Positions 1-63,334 of a stretch of DNA of 64,000 nucleotides are shown in pieces; positions within the stretch are counted from its first letter, which is position 1, and each line of letters starts with the position of its first letter. The notes under the pieces were generated by a model that searched no databases, was not told where the DNA came from, and saw only the letters and a program-made list of their open reading frames with translations. The translations under genes were made by a program, and so were the position numbers. Source of the stretch: Eledone cirrhosa (taxonomy: Eukaryota); contig OZ024745.1 in assembly GCA_964016885.1 (NCBI GenBank), positions 80,724,001 to 80,788,000 on the forward strand, in the 5' to 3' direction.

Positions 1-1780
1 ACAGTTTCGCATCTCGTTGCACACTCATCGTCCTATAGCATAACAATCTCCATCTTGTTACCTTACCCGACTCACTGGGAAAACAATAAATGGAACTAGA
101 CCTGTCAGCATTTCCAACCATTCGCCAGAATTATGGAATTACCATTTCAACTACTACCCACCTACAGATTCAACTTGCTTTTTTTTCTTTTCAAAGCAAC
201 CAGCCATTTTTTCCTGGCTGTCTAGCACTTCTGGCAATTCATCTGGAAGGCCGACATTTTCTCGCCTACCCATCATCTTCTTGCCAGCTTTGCTATAACA
301 TTTGCCATAACAGCCATATAGCTCTGGTAAAGCATGAACAGCACCATCATTGACAACAGCTACTGGTAAACTACCATAACAGCTTCATCCACAGCTCTGG
401 TACAGCACTTACCATAACAGCTAGCATTTAATGCAAGAACAGCAACTTCGCCCATGTCAGACTTTATCCGTTTTCTGTTAGACTCCTGGTGGTCACGTAT
501 AAATAGTAAAACAGCTAGTCATTTGACACAGCGGCTCAACACGGCCCTTAGCGCCTCATTTTTCTTCTTGCATGCATTCTTTTGTTCAATTTTTTTTTTC
601 ATTGATGTGCTCTTTCAGCATTTTTCCCTGCTGATTCAATAATCTGTATCGTCTTGCGACTAGGAAGGGGGTATTGTAGTGACCTACATTCCGCGGGCTC
701 ATATACATTCTCTGTGCGTTGTTTAGGTAGCCAATCGCCGCCAGCGTAGGAGAGTGTATCTCTACACACGCCCTGAGGGAAAAATTCCCGCGTCAATTCA
801 GAAATCTCTCTCTTGCAGCTTTGACCGTGGAAAGGTAAACAACTATTTTTCTTTCGCCGTGAAATCATTAGCCAATATGTAACACAACAATTTAACCACG
901 GGCCTGGCAAACACTTCAGCCAGTAGACCGTGCCTTCTGAAATCTGCTTCTTGCAGCTTGACCATGCTAAGTAAGCACAAACAACATGTAACGGTGAGAT
1001 TTGAACTTTGGCCTGTCGGCCTTCCTTGGGCCTGGCACAATGCCACATTCCTTTTGTAACCCTTTTATGTTTAACTTCAACTATACAACTATACAACTAA
1101 ACAAACATTACTTTGTGCTACAACAAATAAACATACATTTCATCTCTAATTTCTGCTGTTGACATCATTATTATGTTACTCGTGCCCCATTTACATTTAT
1201 ATACTTCGCTGCTAAAAATGTCGAGGCTGCATTATGTGAGATCTGCCTATTGCTCGCCTATGGCAGACAATAGATATACCCAGGACACTATAGTGAAATA
1301 CCAATATATGGAACATTACATTCATGTAACCTTCTTTCTTTACTTTAATTCATATTCATTTTGAAGTTCCAATGAGCTGCTCCAATTTTACCTAAGTTAA
1401 TTATCTTCAACTGAACCAGATCAATAATGATTTATAATCATTTGATCCAGAAACATTATATGGAGTAGCGAAACAATTGTAAACGGACATTATTAGTATT
1501 AGCATTATTATTCTTTACATTCCTTACATTAAACTAAAAATATGTTGACAATCTTTTAATAATGTCTTCCTTGTGAAATTTGTGGTCTTGTTTTGCTTAA
1601 CTAATGAATATCTCCAGCTCTGTGCACCTAACCTCTGCATGAACCCAGCCACCTAGCTGCCTTCCACAGCATATTGCACATTGAGCACATGCCTTTACGC
1701 TTTGGCTTCTAACGAATTCACCAATCTCTCTTCTCCTCTCCTATCTCCATCTCTCTCTTTAAGATTGGTTACTCTTGAAC

Positions 1781-2995: not shown

Positions 2996-3130
2996 TATAG
3001 GATTATCCTAGATGTAGTAATGGTTTATTACTACACTGGATATGGTTGACGTACGGTGAGAGGTTACTCTACGAGTTATGGAAGAATTGTTGAAGAAACT
3101 TAGTTCCTGATCCTTCTGTATTCCGGAGTG

Positions 3131-5201
3131 TATATAAAGAATGAATAATAACAGGTAGACATCATAAAAAGGTCATTTATTCCGTGTGCTTACAAATGTT
3201 TCCACGGTGGTACTACAGCCTAGTTATGCTATGTGGAAATTTACAACTATTTGAAGAACTCAAATATCCAATGCTGTGACCACTGTATCCTCAGAGCAGA
3301 ATGGTTAAAATGTACAATGTAAATACCCTTAAGTGGGGTTGTTGGAGAAGATAGAGTAGAAAAGGAAGAGAGAAAAGTAGGGGAGAGGGAGAGAGAGAAA
3401 GATATGCAGGTGTTGGAGAAATAGGAGAGAGTGGTTTGTAGATATCTTAATCAAAATGTTATGGTAGGGGTTTTATTATACTGGTTACTTTAGGAGAGAT
3501 GCGTTGATAGTTAAGGTCGGAATTATTTATTGCCCCAGAGGGCAGGTTCATAGATGTGGAGAGGGACGGAGGTAGGCCAAAGGCGAGAGAGAGAGAGAGA
3601 GAGAGAGTAATGGATGTAGAGAGAGAGAGAGAGATAGAGAGGGGACCGACGAAGTCTATGTGGTGAGTGAACTTTGGGTTCGTAGTAGTAATCTGCGAAT
3701 TGCACTGAGTTACCATTTATAGTGATAAGCAGTGTATTGTCTTGTAGTGTGGGGGAAGAGAAGGTGGTTAGCTAGAAAGCGATGTTATAGTTACGGGTTC
3801 GAATGTTAAGTTATTTTATAGTGAGAGAATTTAGCTTTTAGTTCGTGGTTGCCGTATAATGATCGTTCAATTCTAACGTTAAGTAGTTTGTTTTTGGATT
3901 TTAATATGTAAAAGAGTTCAAGGTTACATAACCTACAGTACTTCAATCCACTCAGATATGCACTTGCGCTGGAAAGTATATCCCATTTTAAGGTGAACTG
4001 TTGGTTGCGTTCACGGAGTTGCCAGGTCTTGTTGGCGAGCGTGGTCACAAAACGGTGATTAGGATGTTTGATTGAGAATCGATGACGGTACCAGCGAGAT
4101 TTAAACGAGGTGGTGGTAGACCCGATATAATACCATTTCTGGTCGTTCGATTCAACCGTGCATTGGTAAACAATGTTGGACTTTAGGCATTCATTCTTCA
4201 ATGGACATCTTTCAGGTAGATGGCAGTTACATTCTTTGTTGTGGGTAGCGGGTATACCATGGATAGGTTGTGATAGCAGTACAGGTGGATTGTGTAATAC
4301 CCGTCTCCCATTTAGTGGTTGGGAAGCAGATATTACGTTCTGCCCATCTGTTACTAAAATATTTTGTTTTGTAGTGTTGTTTAATTGCTTTAAGTTAAGT
4401 TTTTTTTATGTATGCTTCAAGGTTTGGTGCCGTGGTGTATGATAGTCTAATAGTTTTAGAGTTCAGAATTTTGCTGTATTTATGGGAACTAGGGAAATGT
4501 TTGTTGATTAACTTAAAGAATGAAAGAGATAGTTTTGTACTAATCGAGGCATTAAAAATAGGATTATACCAGATATACTTTCTACAACGTGATTTATTTG
4601 GTGGTGATTTTCTATTATTAGTATGTCTGGTGGTACCGTGTGTGTGCGCTTGTATTTTAGTCCCCCAGTTACGTATTCCTTGATTTCGTGTAGAGCTATG
4701 TGTGTTATGGAGATTCCTATCAATGTATTCTATTGTATCCCGGTGGTCGGCATTCCTTAATGCATTATTATAGTATTCAGCGTGTTCACTAAAAATATCA
4801 GAGTTAGACGATAGACGAGACATTCTAAGAGAAATACTCCGGGGAACTGATTTGATCATGGAGAGTGGGTGGTTTGAGTTAAATTTAATATACGTAAGGT
4901 TCTCATTCATCTTGTGGAAGGGTCGTATCTGTCCGGTATTTAAATTAAGAGTTACGTCCAGAAAGTTTACTACTTTAAGATTGTATTCGTATGTTATTTT
5001 TTAATATTTTTCCGTAGCCTTTCAAGATTTTGGTTAATAAGAGCCCGTCATCTCTGCATATCCCCCCCCCCCCCCCTGTAGATTACTAAATTTACTATGT
5101 AGTATGTGGGCTATGTAAATTCCCACAAGATCCGTGACCTCCGCTGAGTCGTTGGAACCCATGGTAATGTCTTTATGGTGTCTACCTGTTATTATTCATT
5201 C

Positions 5202-9580: not shown

Positions 9581-9961
9581 TCTGGTTGGTGAAATAAATC
9601 ATGCGACCACTCATGCCGACCTTTGGCCTCATAGATAAACGATTTCCTTCGTTTTGTTTTGGGGGTTCACGTAGCCAAAGTTTTCTTGAGGCGACCTACT
9701 TACTGTCAACGACACAGAATTCTCATAAACAGTCTGCTTTCTGCTATCTAGCGGTCAGTTCGGTTCAGTTCACAATAGAGATCAGAACGATGTAGTTTAC
9801 CAACAGAATGTTTCAAAAGTGAAGAATGGTCTGACTTATTCTTCAGTTTTGAAACTGCAGTAAGTGAACTTAGTGAAGCCTCCTATCTTTAGGTTGCTTG
9901 ACTGAGAATATGTCCATAGGAAAATATGCTTCTGAATAAGATGTTCTATATGTATATGAAT

Positions 9962-10155
9962 ATAGGAAAAAGTATGACCCCGACGGCAGAGCTCAAGCCG
10001 TTTCGACGGCTATTTCTGTTCAGAAGTAGCCGTCGAAACGGCTTGAGCTCTGTCGTCGGGGTCATACTTTTTCCTATTACCCACTCTACTACCCTAAGTA
10101 TTGAGTACTTTGGTGCGTTATGGTCCATCTGGTTCCTTACCACAATTCCTTCGTT
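9962..10155 (+). repeat. Hairpin-headed ~190-bp repeat, copy 1
   Basis: 57-bp palindromic arms (9962-10018/10021-10077) plus a unique ~75-bp tail; homologous to 17860-18056 and 63161-63296. Confidence 0.9.
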
Positions 10156-10285
10156 GTATATGAATATATATATATAACGGGGGAAAGAGAGAGCGAGAGA
10201 GAGAGAGAGTAACTCATGCAAAGTTACCAACAGGTAGAGTACTAGTAAAGGCAACTAATACAATAAAACTTCACTCACATCTAGT

Positions 10286-10702: not shown

Positions 10703-13700
10703 TGTGGCTACCTTGAGTCTCTCTGGTCCACGTGGGGTACTTTCCGCTCGCGTCTGTCTTCACACGTCCGTCACCTTGCAGGGCGTATAGCTAAGAGGGC
10801 TCTGTTCACGGCCTGATCCCTCGAGTCGCCCCCCGTCCTGCTGCTTCTGGTCAGGCGTCCCTCAACTTCCGGAAATCCTCCTCCCGCGGCAGCTCTACAC
10901 CCCCTCTATCTCGCGGCAGCCCACACACGCCCCCCTGATCTCAAGGATCAAACCCCCCCCCCATCACACTGCTCCATCTCAAAATCCGCCATCCACCTAA
11001 GTTGGCTGCAGATCCGTTCCAATCTCCGCACTGTTGGGGCGGCTCTTTCATTTTCCTCTTCCTCGGAGTCCGTCACCATAACGACTCTATGGACGTCCAA
11101 GACGTGACGTGGAATTCCGTCCACAGACACGTTGTTTTGGGAATTTACGACGGTTACCATTCCCTTTCTCCATTGAGATGTGCAACGCGCGTTCGGGGGC
11201 TGGACCCATACCTCTTCGCCCACTTGTACGAATGCGCTCTCTCTCTCTCTCCACCGGCTGCTGTGGTACCATGCACGGGTGCCGCCATTCATATCTATAT
11301 ATTGCCCTGTGCGGCACCGACTCCTCGGCCTGTCCCCCCCCCCCCCCCCCGCGGAGACATGTTGTACCAGAACACTGCCTCCATTGGCGAAATGTGCCCC
11401 CTTTCCGCCATGGCCTTGATCGTGCGATGGTGTCTCTCCACGATCCCATTTCCGCTTGGCCTGTATGCCGCTCTGAAGAAGCGGTTCACCTTCCATTTGT
11501 CAAGCATTTCCCTCAGCGCCTCCGAGCGAAACGCCGTGCTGTTGTCCATCAGTAGTTTATCCACAAGGCCCCGCTCCAAGAATATCTCTCTCAGCGTCCG
11601 CACGATTTCCTCTGCAGTCCCTGTCTTCATTTCCCTCCATACCGCCATCCGTCCCGGCCCACAATCGACCATCAAAAGATACGTTCCTTGTCGGTAGTGT
11701 GTCACGTCCACCGTTAATCGCTTCCAGTTGTGCTCCACCGGGATGCTTCCTGTCTCGTGCACACCCGGGGCAGGGTCGATAGACTGGCATCTGTCGCAAC
11801 CTCCGACCACTCTCTGGACACTCTGCTAACATCAAAGTCGATTCCCCTGGCTAGGAACAGGGTCCTATCCACCCCTATGTGGTGCATGGCGTGCAGTCTC
11901 CTCAACTCCGAATCCCTCAGCCGACACACTGCCGCTATCGCTTTCTCTGCGTCCCCTGGCGTTTCCAGCCAGGCTTTCTTCACCTGGTTAATACGTCTGC
12001 CCTGTTTTTCTCTGAGGGTACAAAACTACACTTAACTCCAGGCTGAACTTAGTGGACAGCTCTCCCAGAGTTCCCAGGCGGCGCTTTATCAACATTTCTG
12101 CTGCCCCTCTCGTTCGCACCCTCCTCTCACTGGTAAGCACTGATCTCACCCATCCAAGTACAGTGGCCGAGTCAATGCGAATTTCTATGGTGCGCAGCCC
12201 CCATCTCAGGGCGAGATTCACCCCTCTCAGCATAGCATCCAGTTCGGCCACGTTGATATGGTTGTAGTCCTCCTTCTTCCTGAGCCAGGCTGCGTCCTCG
12301 AGACCTCGACGCCCCCCTATCTCCAGAGTGACCCCTAGTGCTATGCTGCTGGCATCACACCATACGATCCCCTCTCCGATTTGGGGACGTACCAGCGTCC
12401 CCTCACTGGGTCATCCGCCTTTACCCTCTCCACGATTTCCTGCATCATGGCCACTGTCCTCTCGCCAACCCCGTCAGCCCAGCTCATTCTGCTCGTGTCT
12501 TGACATAGCTGCATGCCGTCCGAAACCACCCTGCGATCGGATAGTGGCCCACCAATTTACCACACATTGAGAAGAGTTCCCGTCTATTCACATCGGGGCC
12601 CAATTCCGGGACTTCGTTACCCCTCCGAAACACGAGTGTGCCCGTCTTATCCCTTTGCAGCTTGAGTCCTAGCGCGGCTCCTCCTTCCATCGCCTCCAGC
12701 GGTTTCGCGGTCAGCCCGAACCTTCCCAAGAGGCCTGAGACTTCTGCTGCTGACACCACCGTCTCGTCCACCAAGATGACGTCGATGTAGGAATTGGTGG
12801 CCCTCTTCACCTTGTCTGCTTTCCCCCGAATGGTCTTGAGGACCGTCGCCATGATTTTTGGTGCAGAGTTCAACCCAAAGCCAAGCCTGGTCAGGCAGTA
12901 TGTCTGGCCCTTATACCTGACCAGCTGATATTTCCACAGCTTCTCATCCACGTGTAACTGCAGATATGCCGACTTTAAGTCGACAATCGTGGAGGCCCCC
13001 GTCATTCGTCTCCACTCTCGCAAAGTTTCCCCCCAAACATCTGTGACCTCACCACCTGTGTGGCATGACACGTGTTCGTTCAGCTCACGAAAGTCCAGCA
13101 CCGGCCTAACCTTGTCCTTCGTGGGCTGCACCACTGCCATCAGCGGCAACACTCCACACTTCACCTCCTCCTTCCAAGGAAGCAGTATACCCTCCCCGAT
13201 CCATCTCTGTACCTCTCCCTCAGACTTGCTTCTGGCATTTCCTTTTAGGGTATGCTGATAGCAGCCTACTCTATTCTTCAGCGTTGGTGGATCTTCTTTC
13301 CAGTACCACTCAACTACCCACCGCTGCCCATCGAACACCACCCTGAAATCCTTGTCCTGTGTGGTATTTTCTTCGTGGACTCTCCCAGCACGCTCACAGC
13401 CCATGATGTCCTCTCGCTACCAAACGTCACCCCGACTTCACTCACTGTAACACCTCCAAGGCAGCCAATCGCGTCCATGCCCATAACTACATTGATTCTG
13501 GCCACCACCTGGTCAATCACGATCGCCCGAAGCCTAATTTTTTCCCCGTACCACCATCGACACCTCGCTGGTACCTCTGCATCTAATCTCCCTGCCGTCG
13601 ACTGCCCTTATACTGTTCATCCCGCTCCACTTTTTAACCACCTCCGTGGTCACTAGTGTTGTCGTGCAACCCGTTTCCATGAGTGCTCATGATGCCCCCC

Positions 13701-15444: not shown

Positions 15445-15515
15445 CATGTGTTGGTGTAATGGTAGCACAGTGGTCTGGATAACCAAAGATGTGGGTTCGA
15501 CTCCCATGTACGTCA
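15445..15515 (+). tRNA. tRNA pseudogene or tRNA-derived head (anticodon-loop triplet GGA)
   Basis: CATGTGT TG GTGT AATGGTA GCAC A GTGGT CTGGATA ACCAA AGAT GTGGG TTCGACT CCCAT GTACGTC A folds as a 71-nt cloverleaf with a wobble-rich acceptor stem. Confidence 0.55.
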
Positions 15516-17859: not shown

Positions 17860-17862
<3 letters not shown>

Positions 17863-18053
17863 GGAACCAGTAAGACCCCGACAGCTGAGCTCAAGCCGTT
17901 TCGACGGCTAATTCTGGACTCAGAATTAGCCGTCGAAACGGCTTGAGCTCAGCTGTCGGGGTCTTACTGGTTCCTATTACCCACTCTACTACCTCAAGTA
18001 TTGAGTACTTTGGTGCGTTATGGTCCACCTGGTTCCTTACCACATTTCCTTCG

Positions 18054-18056
<3 letters not shown>
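17860..18056 (+). repeat. Hairpin-headed ~190-bp repeat, copy 2
   Basis: Perfect 57-bp arms (17860-17916/17921-17977) with the same tail, flanked by (TA)n. Confidence 0.9.
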
Positions 18057-18309: not shown

Positions 18310-18621
18310 ATTCTTCTATAGAATGTGCATTTAGTATATACACAATAAACCAATATATGGCTCCTTCCTTCTCAATGTAAACACACATGAATGTAAACAA
18401 AAGTATACATACGTACACATACAAACTAACTGATACACACAGCCGTACATAAACCCATACACACACATATATAACCTATATATACTCACATACACATATA
18501 ATATATCCGTATTTCAACATATATATATATACACACATATACATACACAAACACATACATATATAGGAAAAGAGTCAGGACCCCGACGGCTGAGCTACAG
18601 TCGTTTCGACAGCAAGTTTCT

Positions 18622-20530
18622 GCTTCAGCTGTTAAATGCTGCGGTCGAAAGAGGCTTGGTGCGGTGCCGGATGGCTTGAAGATCCCTTGGTTCAATCAAG
18701 TGGTCAATATGCAATCCGAGCAAAGAAAGAGGCTTACAAAGGTTAGCTTGGAAATAAGTCCTCCTTCTTGCACATACGGTACAAGCAGGCACGAAGAATC
18801 GTAGCAGAAACAGTAAAGATATGGGAGGACTTTGAGGTTAAGCTGGAATCCGACTTCAGATCAACAAATAAAGTCTTCTGGCAGACCATCAGCCGACTTC
18901 GTAATAAGAAGTCCTCCTCTCCACATGCTATCAAGAACGCGTCTGGGATTCTCTTCTTTTCAGAGAGGTGCACCCTCGCAAGGTGGAGAGAATACTTTGC
19001 TGATATCTTAAACCTGATCACAACAGCATATTCAGGTGTACACGAGGTGCATCTGGGAGCGGTGATTAATCTCTCAGAGGCTGAGGTCACAAGAGCAGTT
19101 AAAGAGCTGAAATGTGGCAAGGCCGCTGGGGACGATGAAATCCGACCCGAGATATTAAAAACCTTAAATAGAGAAGGTATTCTCTGGCTGACGCGTATAT
19201 GCCGGGTGGCCTGGTTCTCTGGAAATGCACCTAAGCAATAGCAATCGGGAGTGATAATCCCAATTTTCTAAAAGGGGGACAAGATATATTGTTCCAATTA
19301 TTGAGGAATCTCCTACTTAAGCCTCCCTGGTAAAGTCTATGTTAAGTGTCTGGCAAAGAGATGCAGGGAGGTTGTCGAGTCCAAGCTAGCTTATGAACAG
19401 TACGATTTTCGTCCCGGACGCAGCACAGACGACCAAATATTCATACTGCAGCAGATATTCGAGAAATCGTGGGAGTATTGCTAAGAGGTATATTCTTGTT
19501 TTGTCGACTTTGAAAAGGCATATGATCGCGACCTTCGGGATATACTGTGGAAGGTTGTGCAGGAGTATGGGACTGATGGTCAGGTTCTTGCAGCTCTGAT
19601 GTCTCTATACGAATGCCCGATTATTTATGTTCGGATAAATGGTGTTAAATCGAAACCATTCAATGTGGGAGTCAGACTCTGCCAAGGGTGTGTACTGCCA
19701 TCTCTCCTGTTCATGGTTGACTTTGCCTTTCATCCTTACGGGGTCGATAAAATAAAGTACCAGTAATGCACTGGGTAATTGCTGGCCTTGTGCCTAAAGT
19801 AGAAACAATTATTTACATGAACAGGATTGATATGCGTAACCGGGTTGGAAGTGGTATCACGACTGGCGGGTGTAAAATGAGTCGGCTGGAATTTGCAGAC
19901 AAGATGTTACTTAATTCGGCAGAAGGTGATCTCCGACTTGCACTTGATAGGTTTGATGAGTGTTAAATGGCTGGAATGAAAAACAGTGCGGCAAAAACTG
20001 AGACACTCGTCCTCTCAAGGAAGCTTGCGCAGTGAACTCTATATGTGGCTCCCACATACCAGAGAACGCTCCTCCACTCTAATAGGGCCCGCATCAGTGT
20101 GGTAGCGAATGCTGAGTTGTGTTGTTACTTGTGGACCGAAAAAATACAAGCAGCCGAAAGGGGTTCCTCCGAAGGGTCTTTGGAGAAGCATTATTCGATA
20201 GAGTGCGCAGTTAGGAGATCAGAGAGTCGCCCCAGCTAGAGCTGCTACTTCTCCGAATTGAGAGATCACAGCTCTAGTATTATGGGCATGTGGTTAGAAT
20301 GTCTTAGGTAAGAATCGCCGGAAAGATTTTACGGGAAAAAACAACCGACAGGAAACCCAATGGTAGACCCCGAGAAAGATGGTTGGATAACATCTATGAG
20401 CTCGGCTGATCTCACTTGGGGATCCAGCCGGATCAGTTGGAGGCGGTTGCTTGTGATAGGACTCGCTGGAAGGAGTGTTTGAGGACTCCGCCGCCACGAC
20501 CTTCCAGAGGAATAAGTGGATGAAGAAGAA
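18622..20530 (+). mobile_element. RTE-clade LINE, 5'-truncated pseudogene with an internal SINE insertion (about 19717-19812)
   Basis: GKAAGDDEIRPEILK, FVDFEKAYDR, GVRLCQGCVL, EFADK; many stops; 3' (GAA)n tail. Confidence 0.88.
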
Positions 20531-25530: not shown

Positions 25531-25978
25531 TTTAATTATTTTAATAATACAATACATGGTTGACTACTCTAATTTACAGTGACTTTTGGGAACTTCTTCA
25601 TATTTATCAGGTTGTTGTATCTGACTTTTCAAACAGAATCTATAACGAAACAAAATATTTTCATTGAAGTTTCGACCGCGTGTAAGCCCTATCTTTACTT
25701 CTCGTTAAACCATGACGATCATTCTATATTACAACTTGTGACTTAAACAGAAACAAGAAAGTATTCTACCTATCTACTCCAATTTATCAGGAATACCTTA
25801 CACCATCATTTGCTTTGTTACTTTTTAATTATTATCAAATTTTAGTATATTTCTTTTAGTTTTCGCCTGTATTTATTATATATATATATATATATATATA
25901 TTGTTTAGCCTACGGTACTTCTCGTTTGGATTTGGTCATATAGAAATATTGAATTTGGAAAACGCCAAATTGTTTCCA

Positions 25979-26790
25979 ATGTCTCTAACCAGCCAAAGAG
26001 AATCTGCCCCTCGGCGCTGTTTTTCAAGGTTAACTGGTGTTTCATTGAGACCCACACAGGACTTTAACAGCAGTGGCAGTGCTGAAGATGTGATGGAAGA
26101 CGAAGATGACGACGATTCCTTCTCAATGAAACTTGATAAACAACACGACGACTCTGATAACTGTTCTTTGCATCGAATGGTTTTTGACCTGTGTAATGAT
26201 TCTGCTATTGTTGCTGACATACACGAAGACGACGATGATGTTTTGGCCACGAAATCACCTTCAAAGCAGACTCCCAATAGAAAGATATACAACTCTAACC
26301 GTAACAGTCCCTTTCGATGGAGACGTGCTGTTACTACTGGTGGTCGTACAACGAGGTCTAAAATTGGATCGAATGGTACAATCCCCTTTCATCCAGAGAT
26401 GGAGATTTCTGCTATCGTTGATTTCAATAGTAGTCAAGAAAATTTAAATACATCTCAACTTGATGTCAGCAACTGTGATACACCATCAACGGGAATGTCT
26501 CCGTTAAGTTGTAAATTGACATCTACATCTCAATCACCCCAGCAAATATTATCGTGTATATCTCCTCCTCATCGTAAATTTCGAGCTCTACGATTATTCG
26601 ATACCCCACACACTCCGCATACTCTGTTATTAAATGTAAGAAAGAAGGATCAATATTCCACTGATCGAACGAAAGGGAAATGTCTACGAAAGAAAAAAAT
26701 CGAAAGACTCGAGGCTAATATTAATCCATTCACTACATCTGTAACTTGTCGAACATCTGGAGAAAAGCGGACTCGATCCCAATGTGAAAA
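25979..26790 (+). CDS. wee1: wee1 coding exon 1 (N-terminal regulatory domain)
   Basis: First ATG (MSLTSQ) after the acceptor ttgtttag at 25908; encodes RxL/TPHTP and NINPFT; donor AA|gtaaat, phase 2. Confidence 0.88.
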
Positions 26791-29700
26791 GTAAATATTG
26801 TTTTTTATAATTATATATTCTTCACTTTTTCTAATTCTTATATTAAATGCATTGAGTTAACTACTAAAATGATAGTCTTGCTAACGGTAATTCGAAGTTT
26901 TTTTTTCATTATTATAAATAAGCCTAGTTTTGATAGAAAATGTATTTATTATTTCCTAACACATTAAAAAAATTGCTTTCCAAGTATTCTTGGGTAATGT
27001 TTTGACATCAGACCTTAATTATAGTGAAGGAAATAAGATGTATAAGTTTTATGTAATAGCTATACATTTCGAAAATATCCATATGAAGTTGTTTGTTAAT
27101 TATTTCGAAATGGTTATGACGTTAGTTCCCTACATTCAATTCGGTTTATGAAATTAACGACACTTTATAGACTCAAGAAGCGAAGAATCATTAACAATTA
27201 AATTGTCATTAATTTAAAAACCTTAAAAAAGAACACACAGCGAGCCAACTTTTCTTGCTTATTTGTTTTGTTTTTGTGTAAAAAACAAACAAAAAAAAAC
27301 CGTTATGTCTACGTTTTTTTTAATTGAGATATTTTTACCAAAATGGATTTTATTAGTTCAGGTATAAAAGGGGTAAATTTATAGATACACCCGTCTTACA
27401 TTCGACGGGAATTTATTTATTTTTCGTGTTTTCAAAGAATCTAACTCCGCAAACTGTCGAAAATTACTAGATTTTAGGTAAAGAGACTGGTGCAGATGTA
27501 TGAATTTACTTTTAAAAGTTATTACATACTTTAAACTGTTTTACAAACAACTCACTGGTTATCTAGGTCTGTATAAAAATTGAAACTATTTGTTTTCAAT
27601 AATGCTGGAATTTCTAAAGCTATCACGTAACATCATAGTTATATTTGTTTTGGGTGGTTTCCTATTGAGGCCTACATTATAAGTTGTATTCTAATAGAAA
27701 TATTTCAGTTTCTTCACGTAGCAAAAAATTCTATGTTGTTATATATTTGATTAAATTATGTTATATATTATTTAATTATTGTTTGTTATATATTTACTAA
27801 ACAAAATATAAAAAAAAACTATATAACATGAATGATTAACTCCAGCTTTAACATATTTCACTACGTTTCAATGAAAAAAAAAATCCCAATACTGATCATC
27901 GATAAAATATATATTTAATAATAATTTAAGGACAAAGCTAATTTGATAAAGTAGTATTGTATATTGTATTGATCCCAGTGTATTATTTCTTTTGTCATAG
28001 CTAAAGTTAGATGGGTTAAAAAATAACATTACTTCAGCAAGGGTGGTGGACAAAATACTTTTACTGAGTTCAAATCAAATCCCGACGAGGTCAACTTTGC
28101 CTTTCATTCTTTCGGGGTCGATAAAATAGAGTATCAGTCAATAACGTAAAGACCCGTTAAGTACTGGGTCCGCTGTAATCAACTTTCCCCCTCTCTTAAA
28201 TTGCTGGCTTTTTGCTTAAATTAGAAATAATTATCACCTGAACAGCAAATAATATCAGTTTTCTAATTGCCAAGTTTACAAGAATAGTGTCATCTTCATT
28301 GAACTTATATTCTGGCTATAGGGTTTATTATACATAGCCATCTTCACCCGATATAGTTTATTTACCTGTAATAAACAACAGCAAATAATTGTTTCTACTT
28401 TTGGCACAAGGCCAGCAATTATCTCAGTGTATTACTGGTACTTTATTTTATCGACCCCGTAAAGATGAAAGGCAAAGATAACCTTGGCGGGATTTGAACT
28501 CAATTGCCAAGTTTACAAGAATAGTGCCATCTTCATTGAACTTATACTCTGGCTGTAGGGTTTATTATACATAGTCATCTTCACCCGATACAGTTTATTT
28601 ACCTGTAATAAACATGGAGATGTGTTTCTTATTTTTACACTACACAGAGTCAAGGTGAGGACAACTTTGCCTGTAATAACATGGACGCGGAGAGTGGGGG
28701 GAGGGGGCTTCCCTTCCGATATTAGTGGTGATGTACAGTTGACTAAAAGAAAATGAATAATTACCAACGGTTTTTGAAAGTCAGATTCGACGAAAAATAA
28801 AAGCGGAAAAAATTATTCATAAAGAAAACTCCGAGGATGCGTAACTCCAATGATGTTCTCATCTTTTCTCCTCGTTTTATCTCTCCTTAAGCTAGTCGTG
28901 GTCAGATTCGTTGAAAACCCGAAAAAAAAAAAAAAAAAATAATGGGGGGAAAAAATAATTGCAAAGAAAACTCCAAGGGTGTTCTCCCGTCGTCCCTCTT
29001 TCGTTTTCTAAAAAAGAAAATCAATCATTCATAGGTCACATTCGTTGAAAACGTAAAAACTAAGGAAAATAAAATTCCCATCGAACGCGAGATGGATGTA
29101 GATCGATAAATTCACCAACCTTTCTTTCTATCTGATTGTGTTTTCACAAACCGGCATGGCTAGATAATTATCTGTATATGGGGAACATTTCTGAAATCGC
29201 TGGACCTTCTGAGACTGTCACATTAGATAATATATATATATATAATGTACACATCATACAGAAAGTACTCTCAGTACAATTTAAATAACACTAATAACAA
29301 ATACTGCACATGTAGTTCTTCGCACACTTATTCCTGAGAGGGTTGTGGCGGCTCAGGGTCTTCAAATACTCCTTCCAGCTGGTCCTGTCAGAAGCGACCG
29401 TATCCAACTGAGCCGGCTGGATCCCCAAGCGAGACCAGTCGAGCTCAGGGATGTTATCAAATCATCTGGCTCAGGGTCTGCCCCTGTGTTTCCTGCAGGT
29501 TGGTTTAGCCCGTAAAATCTGTCCAGCGATTCTTTCATGAGATATCCTAAACACATGCCCATAGTATCGGGGCTGTGATCTCTCAATTCTGAGATATTGC
29601 GAGTCTACCTGGAGAGATTCTCTGATCTCCGAGCTACGCACTCTATCGAGTAACGTTACTCCAAAGACCTTTTTGGAGGAACTCCATTTCAGCCGTTTGT

Positions 29701-63144: not shown

Positions 63145-63160
63145 ACACATATATATTTGT

Positions 63161-63294
63161 CCAGAATTAGCCGTCGAAACGGCTTGAGCTCAGCCGTCGG
63201 GGTCTTACTGGTTCCTATTACCCACTCTACTACCCTAAGTATTGAGTACTTTGGTGCGTTATGGTCCACCTGGTTCCTTACCACATTTCCTTCG

Positions 63295-63296
<2 letters not shown>
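63161..63296 (+). repeat. Same repeat family, copy 3 (right arm and tail only)
   Basis: Starts at ccagaattagccgtcgaaac, i.e. at the hairpin loop; flanked by (TA)n. Confidence 0.9.

Positions 63297-63334
<38 letters not shown>

What the first reader, a model, noticed from the sequence alone, without database searches (positions are those of the whole stretch)
9962..10155. Hairpin-headed repeat family that looks like a hammerhead folded back on its own stem II
Seen: copies at 9962 and 17860 begin with 57-bp palindromes; 63161 has only the right arm, starting at the loop; 18562-18620 has only a variant left arm. The right arm reads ..AGCCGTC GAAAC GGCT tgagctc AGCC GTC GGGG in the 63161 copy, i.e. 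hammerhead GAAA, stem III and a GUC site. Copy-specific variants (AAAAGTAT vs CCAGTAA) are mirrored in both arms of each copy, and both left arms end at the same TAT next to TA-rich sequence. Inference: cDNA snaps back at stem II and self-primes second-strand synthesis, deleting the CUGANGA half. The ribozyme hairpin would then double as a replication or integration primer.
Basis: partly seen in the sequence, partly recalled or inferred. Interest (0 to 1): 0.75.

Follow-up and report, generated by a model that had tools for sequence, protein, structure and literature searches.

The report
Penelope stubs with a split hammerhead
These 200-base hairpins are two head-to-head end pieces of an abundant Penelope-like jumping gene inserted in TA repeats, and they likely form when the element's RNA is copied from both sides of a DNA cut until each copy runs off the RNA's predicted capped start, which lies inside its predicted hammerhead ribozyme.

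Summary
Observation real. The hairpins are the shortest insertions of a Penelope-like element (PLE) with Hydra-clade protein motifs (3.53-kb unit, 717-aa RT + GIY-YIG ORF, tandem arrays); window copy 17921-18060 matches its end at 139/140 bases. Parents carry the missing hammerhead half, mostly as a U3-A8 core (3,552 motif hits). Both arms stop at one point inside loop II (133/144 short arms within -4..+8), often with an untemplated G/C (522/950), and template-jump concatemers restart there. Best reading: two internal priming sites on a (TA)n double cut, with run-off at a capped transcription start that splits the hammerhead. No RNA reads were available to confirm it. The architecture is published; I did not find the run-off reading in print, but this scan reached it before on other DNA of this genome and of another.

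The parts
9952..9963 (+). Left copy of a 12-bp direct repeat flanking copy A (likely target-site duplication; overlaps the first 2 bases of the arm)
9962..10018 (-). Copy A, inverted tail-less arm (PLE positions +5 to +61; ends at priming site 1)
10021..10077 (+). Copy A, forward arm (+5 to +61) with the 3' half of the hammerhead
   Evidence: 91% to the B-type unit end
10078..10155 (+). Copy A, tail = start of the element's 5' UTR, ends at priming site 2
10156..10167 (+). Right copy of the 12-bp direct repeat flanking copy A
17860..17920 (-). Copy B, inverted tail-less arm, complete to +1 (61 nt)
   Evidence: (61/61)
17921..17977 (+). Copy B, forward arm (+5 to +61); the C at 17921 also fits an extra G in front of the inverted arm's +1
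   Evidence: (139/140 with tail)
17927..17962 (+). 3' half of a type I hammerhead: stem II 3' strand, GAAA, 6-bp stem III, GUC site (predicted cut after 17957), stem I 3' strand
17978..18056 (+). Copy B, tail (5' UTR start), ends at priming site 2 in (TA)n
17983..18006 (+). Predicted bulged hairpin (4+4 bp, 2-nt bulge) 5 nt after site 1; a twin lies 4 nt after site 2 in full-length units
18563..18613 (-). Copy D, tail-less arm of an older subfamily, joined by microhomology to an RTE-type LINE
   Evidence: L098; L106
18610..20530 (+). 5'-truncated, decayed RTE-type LINE (clade label recalled, not tested) that takes the place of copy D's second arm
63159..63218 (+). Copy C, single forward arm starting at +2, no inverted partner
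63219..63297 (+). Copy C, tail

Best explanation
The hairpins are head-to-head pairs of 5'-truncated end pieces of a Penelope-like retrotransposon with Hydra-clade motifs, likely made when its endonuclease cuts both strands of a (TA)n target and each DNA end primes reverse transcription at one of two internal sites of the RNA, both copies running off at a predicted capped transcription start inside hammerhead loop II. Shown: parent element, two fixed 3' ends 61 and 140 nt from position +1, one sharp 5' boundary at +1 for both arms, varied end-joining-like centres, an untemplated C:G pair at many centres. Inferred: +1 is the RNA 5' end (about 0.75); the extra base is the copied cap (about 0.6); the two cDNA ends are joined by blunt or 1-2-nt microhomology repair; stubs outnumber long copies because the priming sites occur twice on the RNA and the 5' pair lies only 61/140 nt from the start, while hammerhead cleavage in the 3' repeat (cut 20 nt before site 1) would remove the 3' pair (speculative).
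For: Parent: 3,552 hits of the stem I/core/stem II motif, 0 for the reversed control; 19 of 20 fetched inverted pairs show a tail on one arm only and one is ambiguous; tandem 3.53-kb units with a 717-aa ORF; nearest Atlas clusters carry GIY-YIG/RVT_1/HTH_animal. Boundary: 133 of 144 short arms end at -4..+8, 3 at -7..-38, 10 of 154 are long; summed contig depth in a DNA run rises about tenfold at +1. Symmetry 27:26:14 and 56 centres in 67 hairpins. Extra base: 522 of 950 complete-complete loci have one C:G pair; first 50 loci: 28 C/G, 13 none, 3 A/T, 2 CG, 4 other two-base; 6 of the 28 and both CG loci belong to the subfamily whose 13 of 13 long arms have T at -1; in 13 longer spacers the base before +1 was T 14, G 7, A 3, C 2 (both C templated). 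Concatemers whose successive pieces each restart at +1 to +12 (5 of 11 distinct 5'-UTR-bearing loci plus L127). Mixed partners: one hairpin with arms of two subfamilies (L241) and three loci where the partner is the inverted end of another hammerhead-bearing repeat (L091, L107, L113). Literature: a PLE protein cuts and extends both strands and starts at two adjacent internal sites that define the tail (PMC11167929); untemplated G marks capped RNA in L1/SVA (PMC4859970).
Against: No RNA start or cap was observed: only contigs were available and the one RNA run covered 87 bases elsewhere. Ends at +2 (27) are as frequent as at +1 (23), 22 arms run 1-4 bases beyond +1, and a second cluster at +5..+7 (42 arms) coincides with the foot of a predicted hairpin in loop II. 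The base before +1 was C 11, G 9, A 3, and a single C:G pair does not say which strand got the extra base; 2 of 50 centres (GT/AC) fit the opposite polarity. Arms nearly always share a subfamily (57 of 83 identical in the diagnostic segment, most others one private change), which two primings on one RNA explain but copy-back would too. In PAc, priming was at a site not homologous to the cut DNA, and hammerhead cleavage was not needed for insertion in vitro (PMC11167929). Samples come from the first listed hits on contig C1 only.
Confidence: 0.72

Rival explanations
1. Same element and two-ended priming, but both cDNAs stop because reverse transcriptase stalls at the folded hammerhead (a hairpin in loop II, or protein bound there) on a longer RNA; +1 is a pause site, not the RNA end.
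For: The predicted loop II hairpin has its 3' strand at -4..+5 with the +1 A bulged; 42 of 144 short arms end at +5..+7; long copies exist, so some RNAs do extend upstream.
Against: Untemplated C:G outnumbers templated A:T 28 to 3 between complete arms; long A/T runs are added right at +1 (L121, L182, L257, L395, L404); concatemer pieces restart at +1 repeatedly; +1 sits in a YYANWYY initiator-like context (consensus recalled).
Confidence: 0.17
2. One reading: one cDNA folds back on its own hairpin (stem II or a short microhomology) and self-primes the second arm. PMC3846280 also reads PLE junction palindromes as self-priming, on an antisense template.
For: Arms usually share a subfamily; many centres have 1-2-nt overlaps; the parent has stem II as predicted.
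Against: Loop II not retained; no arm-length polarity (27:26); 950 loci with 0-2-base centres; mixed-subfamily and foreign partners; single arms without a partner start at the same point (63159).
Confidence: 0.06
3. The 197-bp hairpin is a separate non-autonomous element (MITE- or SINE-like master) copied as a unit.
For: 26 of the 40 best hits are identical over all 197 bases including the centre; fixed ends in (TA)n in 30 of 30 loci.
Against: Those hits were ranked by likeness to the query; unselected copies have 56 centres in 67 hairpins; the diagnostic variants also occur in full-length coding units, so no short master is needed.
Confidence: 0.05

Closest known systems
Hydra clade of C-terminal EN+ Penelope-like elements (PMC8557442; passages, section 11, two supplement look-ups), e.g. 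Hydra-1_Obim
   Same: RW(K/R), DKT, CxCX5C linker, CxxC and CxH around the conserved E and N, (TA)n targets, hammerhead near the 3' end.
   Different: 3.53 kb with a 1.1-kb 3' UTR (described Hydras are generally under 3 kb); U3-A8 core, 36-39-nt loop II and 6-bp stem III, unlike the listed Hydra-1_Obim hammerhead; two motifs of this family were not found in the supplement text held.
Canonical PLE insertion unit: pLTR tandem, adjacent inverted 5'-truncated copy, tail at one end (PMC8557442 Fig. 2 legend; PMC3846280 passages and Discussion; PMC2377424 passages)
   Same: Partial and full tandems, head-to-head inverted copy, tail on one arm only, palindromic junction.
   Different: Tail is 79 nt, not 30-40; most insertions are reduced to two stubs that stop at one fixed point; the data argue against the self-priming reading given in PMC3846280.
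Poseidon_Ac (PAc) in vitro system (PMC11167929; parts 1-2 of 4 of the text)
   Same: Both strands cut and extended; two internal start sites bound the tail; start sites lie next to a stem-loop; AT-rich targets.
   Different: Other clade; there the start sites lie in the ORF and show no homology to the target, here they lie in the 5' UTR and end in TAT/TTA beside (TA)n; a fixed cDNA stop is not described in the parts read.
PLE hammerhead variants (PMC4209133; part 1 of 4)
   Same: Type I topology, short stem I, long stem II with an unpaired base at its 5' side, U3-A8 covariant reported for a schistosome PLE.
   Different: Stable 6-bp stem III instead of a minimal one; long loop II that holds the inferred transcription start.
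LINE-1 twin priming and cap-derived untemplated G (PMC4859970, passages; twin-priming mechanism itself recalled)
   Same: Two primers on one insertion give an inversion; extra G marks a capped 5' end.
   Different: In L1 the two cDNAs cover different parts of the RNA; here both cover the same 61 nt, giving a palindrome.

Membership tests
EN+ Penelope-like element | Single ORF with RT and C-terminal GIY-YIG endonuclease | tested here: met
   717-aa ORF with RT catalytic and GIY-YIG-type motifs read by eye; Atlas neighbours at 0.96-0.99 with GIY-YIG, RVT_1, HTH_animal; 2,049 relatives at E<=1e-20. Direct Pfam, NCBIfam and PDB scans gave nothing.
EN+ Penelope-like element | Tandem or partial-tandem units (pLTR), inverted 5'-truncated copy, tail at one end | tested here: met
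Hydra clade | RWK and DKT motifs, CxCX5C linker, CxxC/CxH around E and N | tested here: met
   P0002 has RWR (one conservative change), DKT, CxCX5C, CxxC and CxH
Hydra clade | Insertion in (TA)n | tested here: met
   30 of 30 loci; 26 perfect plus 4 near-perfect copies
Hydra clade | Phylogenetic placement with reference Hydra proteins | not tested
   No reference Hydra protein was fetched
Type I hammerhead ribozyme | Three stems around the conserved core with an NUH site | tested here: met
   Parent folds into the three-way junction as MFE; 43 distinct long arms keep it, core U3-A8 in 31, C3.A8 in 11, U3.G8 in 1. No Rfam match and fold z only -0.59. The window stubs hold the 3' half only.
Type I hammerhead ribozyme | Self-cleavage | not testable with these tools
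   No assay; no raw RNA reads
Non-LTR retrozyme | Short non-coding tandem repeats each with a whole hammerhead | tested here: not met
   Stubs lack the core half; tandem units with whole hammerheads are 3.5 kb and coding; definition from 10.64898/2026.07.22.740005, part 1 of 5
MITE / fixed-hairpin non-autonomous element | One fixed internal structure copied as a unit | tested here: not met
   56 centres in 67 hairpins

The most novel reading that the evidence does not exclude
The element's promoter starts transcription inside its own hammerhead, so a unit-length mRNA carries the ribozyme's 3' half at its capped front and the 5' half plus a whole copy at its back. Cleavage of the back copy would strip the 3' priming sites and divert reverse transcription to the front pair, mass-producing harmless 200-bp hairpins; uncleaved or read-through RNA would give long copies. 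The ribozyme would then be a switch between productive and abortive retrotransposition, and PLE inverted ends in general would be double-primed run-off products, not self-primed ones.
Probability: 0.3. Interest if true: 0.78.

Novelty: new member of a known kind. Interest (0 to 1): 0.48.

Why it matters
How PLEs build their inverted ends and what their hammerheads do are stated as open in PMC8557442 and PMC11167929. This family supplies tens of thousands of natural junctions (27,871 arms with one exact 25-mer) that argue against self-priming and for two-ended priming with a fixed stop, and it gives exact coordinates for a test: a predicted start (+1), a predicted cut (+41), two priming sites (+61, +140) and intact ORFs. 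The family itself is an ordinary member of a described clade, and the scan has noted the same mechanism before.

Tried and rejected
Rfam found no hammerhead in the window or the parent. A search for the canonical CUGANGA core upstream of the right arm gave 36 hits, none a parent; the parent was found from a longer palindrome among them. I first suspected the arm was antisense RTE coding sequence; 29 of 29 other RTE copies lack it. Reverse-complement loop pairs suggested flip-flop hairpin replication; independent junction formation explains them. An arm mismatch seen in most top hits for copy A was query selection (1 of 100 listed arms). A short master for subfamily B was rejected when its variants appeared in coding units. 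RNA evidence: no raw reads; one RNA contig of 87 aligned bases, uninformative. One search used a wrong offset (labels two too low; redone); the column count part 2 and the tail-variation count failed and are not used. Paper searches: 'octopus'+'Twhin' 0 papers; Penelope + non-templated + cap + transcription start site + truncat gave one unrelated paper; some searches gave the papers cited. The held library lacks most subscription journals, and consensus sequence files of PMC8557442 may not be in the supplement text searched.

Full report
1. Observation. The window lies at G000:C5:80724001-80788000 in a 3.0-Gb genome; I did not identify the organism (earlier scan notes call it octopus-type, untested). 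Copy B is a perfect 57-bp inverted repeat, copy A 57 bp with two G-T mismatches. Copy C is a single arm plus tail from 63159. Copy D (18563-18613) is an arm of an older subfamily fused by microhomology to a decayed RTE-type LINE; 29 of 29 other copies of that LINE lack the arm. Copy A is flanked by a 12-bp direct repeat. The family is large: 27,871 arms carry one exact 25-mer, and two subfamily 33-mers hit 5,914 and 13,596 times; reversed controls gave 0.

2. The parent. A canonical-core search gave 36 hits and no parent. A longer palindrome (L125) showed the upstream sequence, and a motif built on it hit 3,552 places (it misses one stem II variant, so this is a floor). All 30 loci read from that search continue into the right arm. 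The parent folds into a type I hammerhead as its minimum-energy structure: 5-bp stem I, 8-bp bulged stem II, 36-39-nt loop II, 6-bp stem III, GUC site. Of 43 distinct long arms matching my full pattern, 31 have U3-A8, 11 a C3.A8 mismatch, 1 U3.G8; U3-A8 is reported in a PLE in PMC4209133 (part 1 of 4). Rfam gave no match and the fold is not more stable than shuffles, so the ribozyme call rests on motif and topology; cleavage is untested. Twenty fetched pairs of hits are inverted repeats of 0.2-1.9 kb around RT/endonuclease coding DNA, with the tail on one arm. The tail continues in 354 places into a 5' UTR; head-to-tail arrays with a 3.53-3.55-kb period carry a 717-aa ORF. Copy B matches the unit end at 139 of 140 bases and its inverted arm at 61 of 61. 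Pfam, NCBIfam and PDB scans of the ORF were blank; Atlas neighbours and homologues carry GIY-YIG, RVT_1 or HTH_animal. My first label was Neptune; an earlier scan note pointed to the Hydra clade, and the protein has the motifs listed in PMC8557442 section 11. No tree was built. The hammerhead listed for Hydra-1_Obim differs.

3. Geometry. Numbering from the A of the AGTCC boundary (+1, L319:4726): predicted cut after +41, tail-less arms end at +61, tail-bearing arms at +140, ATG at +232. A bulged hairpin starts 5 nt after the first end and a twin 4 nt after the second (lead from earlier notes; conservation not tested). The sample for 5' ends was the first-listed hits on contig C1: about all 100 and 45 regions's 100. 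Of 154 arms with an intact anchor, 10 are long, 3 end at -7 to -38, 133 at -4 to +8 and 8 at +12/+13; arms cut inside the anchor are not counted. Tail-bearing and tail-less arms have the same distribution. In a DNA run, summed contig depth is about 0.3 million just before +1, 3-3.8 million over the stub and about 0.01 million in the ORF (not a copy number, and possibly the assembly's own sample).

4. Test of snap-back. In 67 hairpins the tail arm is longer in 27, the other in 26, equal in 14; centres are blunt (20), overlap 1-4 nt (23) or hold inserts (24); 56 are distinct (part of this sample was chosen for one arm complete to +1). No centre of 30-45 nt keeps loop II (9 distinct loci). Genome-wide, 950 loci have both arms complete with 0-2 bases between. 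Arm-to-arm identity is 0.969 against 0.904 between copies, but 0.992 between copies of one subfamily; 4 departures are shared by both arms and 39 are not. One of 83 hairpins clearly joins two subfamilies, and three selected loci join an arm to the inverted end of another hammerhead-bearing repeat. These fit two separate cDNAs joined end to end.

5. Why +1. Of the 950 loci, 522 have a single C:G pair. The first 50 listed: 28 C/G, 13 none, 3 A/T, 2 CG, 1 CT, 2 GT/AC, 1 TT. Only 2 of the 28 are in the subfamily whose parent has C at -1; 6 of the 28 and both CG loci are in subfamily B, where 13 of 13 long arms have T; for A-type copies the parent base is less sure. In 13 longer spacers the 26 bases before +1 were T 14, G 7, A 3, C 2. 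Runs of A/T are added at +1 in several copies. Of 11 distinct 5'-UTR-bearing loci, 6 are tandems and 5 are concatemers whose pieces restart at +1 to +12, one with three pieces, as expected if the enzyme jumps to a new RNA on reaching a 5' end. An untemplated G is taken as a cap mark for L1 and SVA (PMC4859970, passages), and D. virilis Penelope has an internal promoter with an initiator (PMC2377424, passages). Against: +2 ends are as common as +1, C preceded +1 as often as G (11 vs 9; several explained by the partner arm), and a hairpin in loop II could stall the enzyme near the same place. No RNA reads could be had.

6. Mechanism, with status. Shown: parent, two 3' ends, one 5' boundary, symmetric variable junctions. 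Established for another PLE in vitro: both strands cut and extended, two internal starts bound the tail (PMC11167929, parts 1-2 of 4). Inferred: two-ended priming in (TA)n; run-off at a capped start; end-joining of the cDNAs. Speculative: hammerhead cleavage in the 3' repeat removes the 3' priming sites and so favours stubs; in PAc cleavage was not needed for insertion.

7. Novelty. Inverted 5'-truncated copies, tails, (TA)n targets and hammerheads are published for PLEs (PMC8557442; PMC3846280, which reads the palindromes as self-priming). My searches found no paper stating cap run-off for PLE stubs, within a library that lacks most subscription journals. The scan's own notes hold the same reading for this genome (e1-10353012, e1-9550100) and another (e1-8622314); I wrote the idea down before seeing them, but they are not independent support. 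Verdict: new member of a known kind with a useful, testable mechanistic signal; interest 0.48.

Noticed in passing
window 3000-5190 (-): 5'-truncated, frameshifted copy of another PLE family in (TA)n, 37% amino-acid identity to P0002, weak GIY-YIG hit.
   Followed up: partly
window about 10900-13420 (-): GC-rich element with RT and integrase frames (RVT_1, rve, DUF7047), next to copy A.
   Followed up: partly
window 25829-26794 (+): 321-aa open frame that recalls the N-terminal part of Wee1-type kinases (recalled; Pfam gave nothing).
   Followed up: no
window 6358, 7738, 8824, 19713, 21043, 21700, 25028, 28050, 28386, 38119, 39383, 60096 and others: Dispersed 90-140-bp SINE-like family in both orientations; one copy interrupts the RTE-type LINE at about 19713-19815.
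   Followed up: no
window 15445-15515 (+): tRNA-like sequence, 42.6 bits; possibly a SINE head.
   Followed up: no
L309 / L300 (G000:C1:27009450-27010170): Three head-to-tail pieces, +1..254, +1..254, +1..144, behind an inverted arm; L127 breaks at nearly the same place (+258), about 25 nt into the ORF, suggesting a preferred RNA end or third start.
   Followed up: partly
L007, L083, L093, L270, L283: Arms starting at +2 are repeatedly preceded by GC, as if +1 were misread after an extra G; unexplained.
   Followed up: no
L100, L106, L113, L125: Other unrelated palindromes, some with their own hammerhead-like motifs, are fused to arms of this family at or near +1, so several PLE families seem to share one insertion event or site.
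   Followed up: partly
L018 flanks: The host sequence on the two sides of the insertion is itself an inverted duplication of about 35 bp.
   Followed up: no
G000:C1:437195500-437215300 and C1:91471500-91491300: Arrays of four to five near-identical full-length units with open ORFs: a young family.
   Followed up: partly
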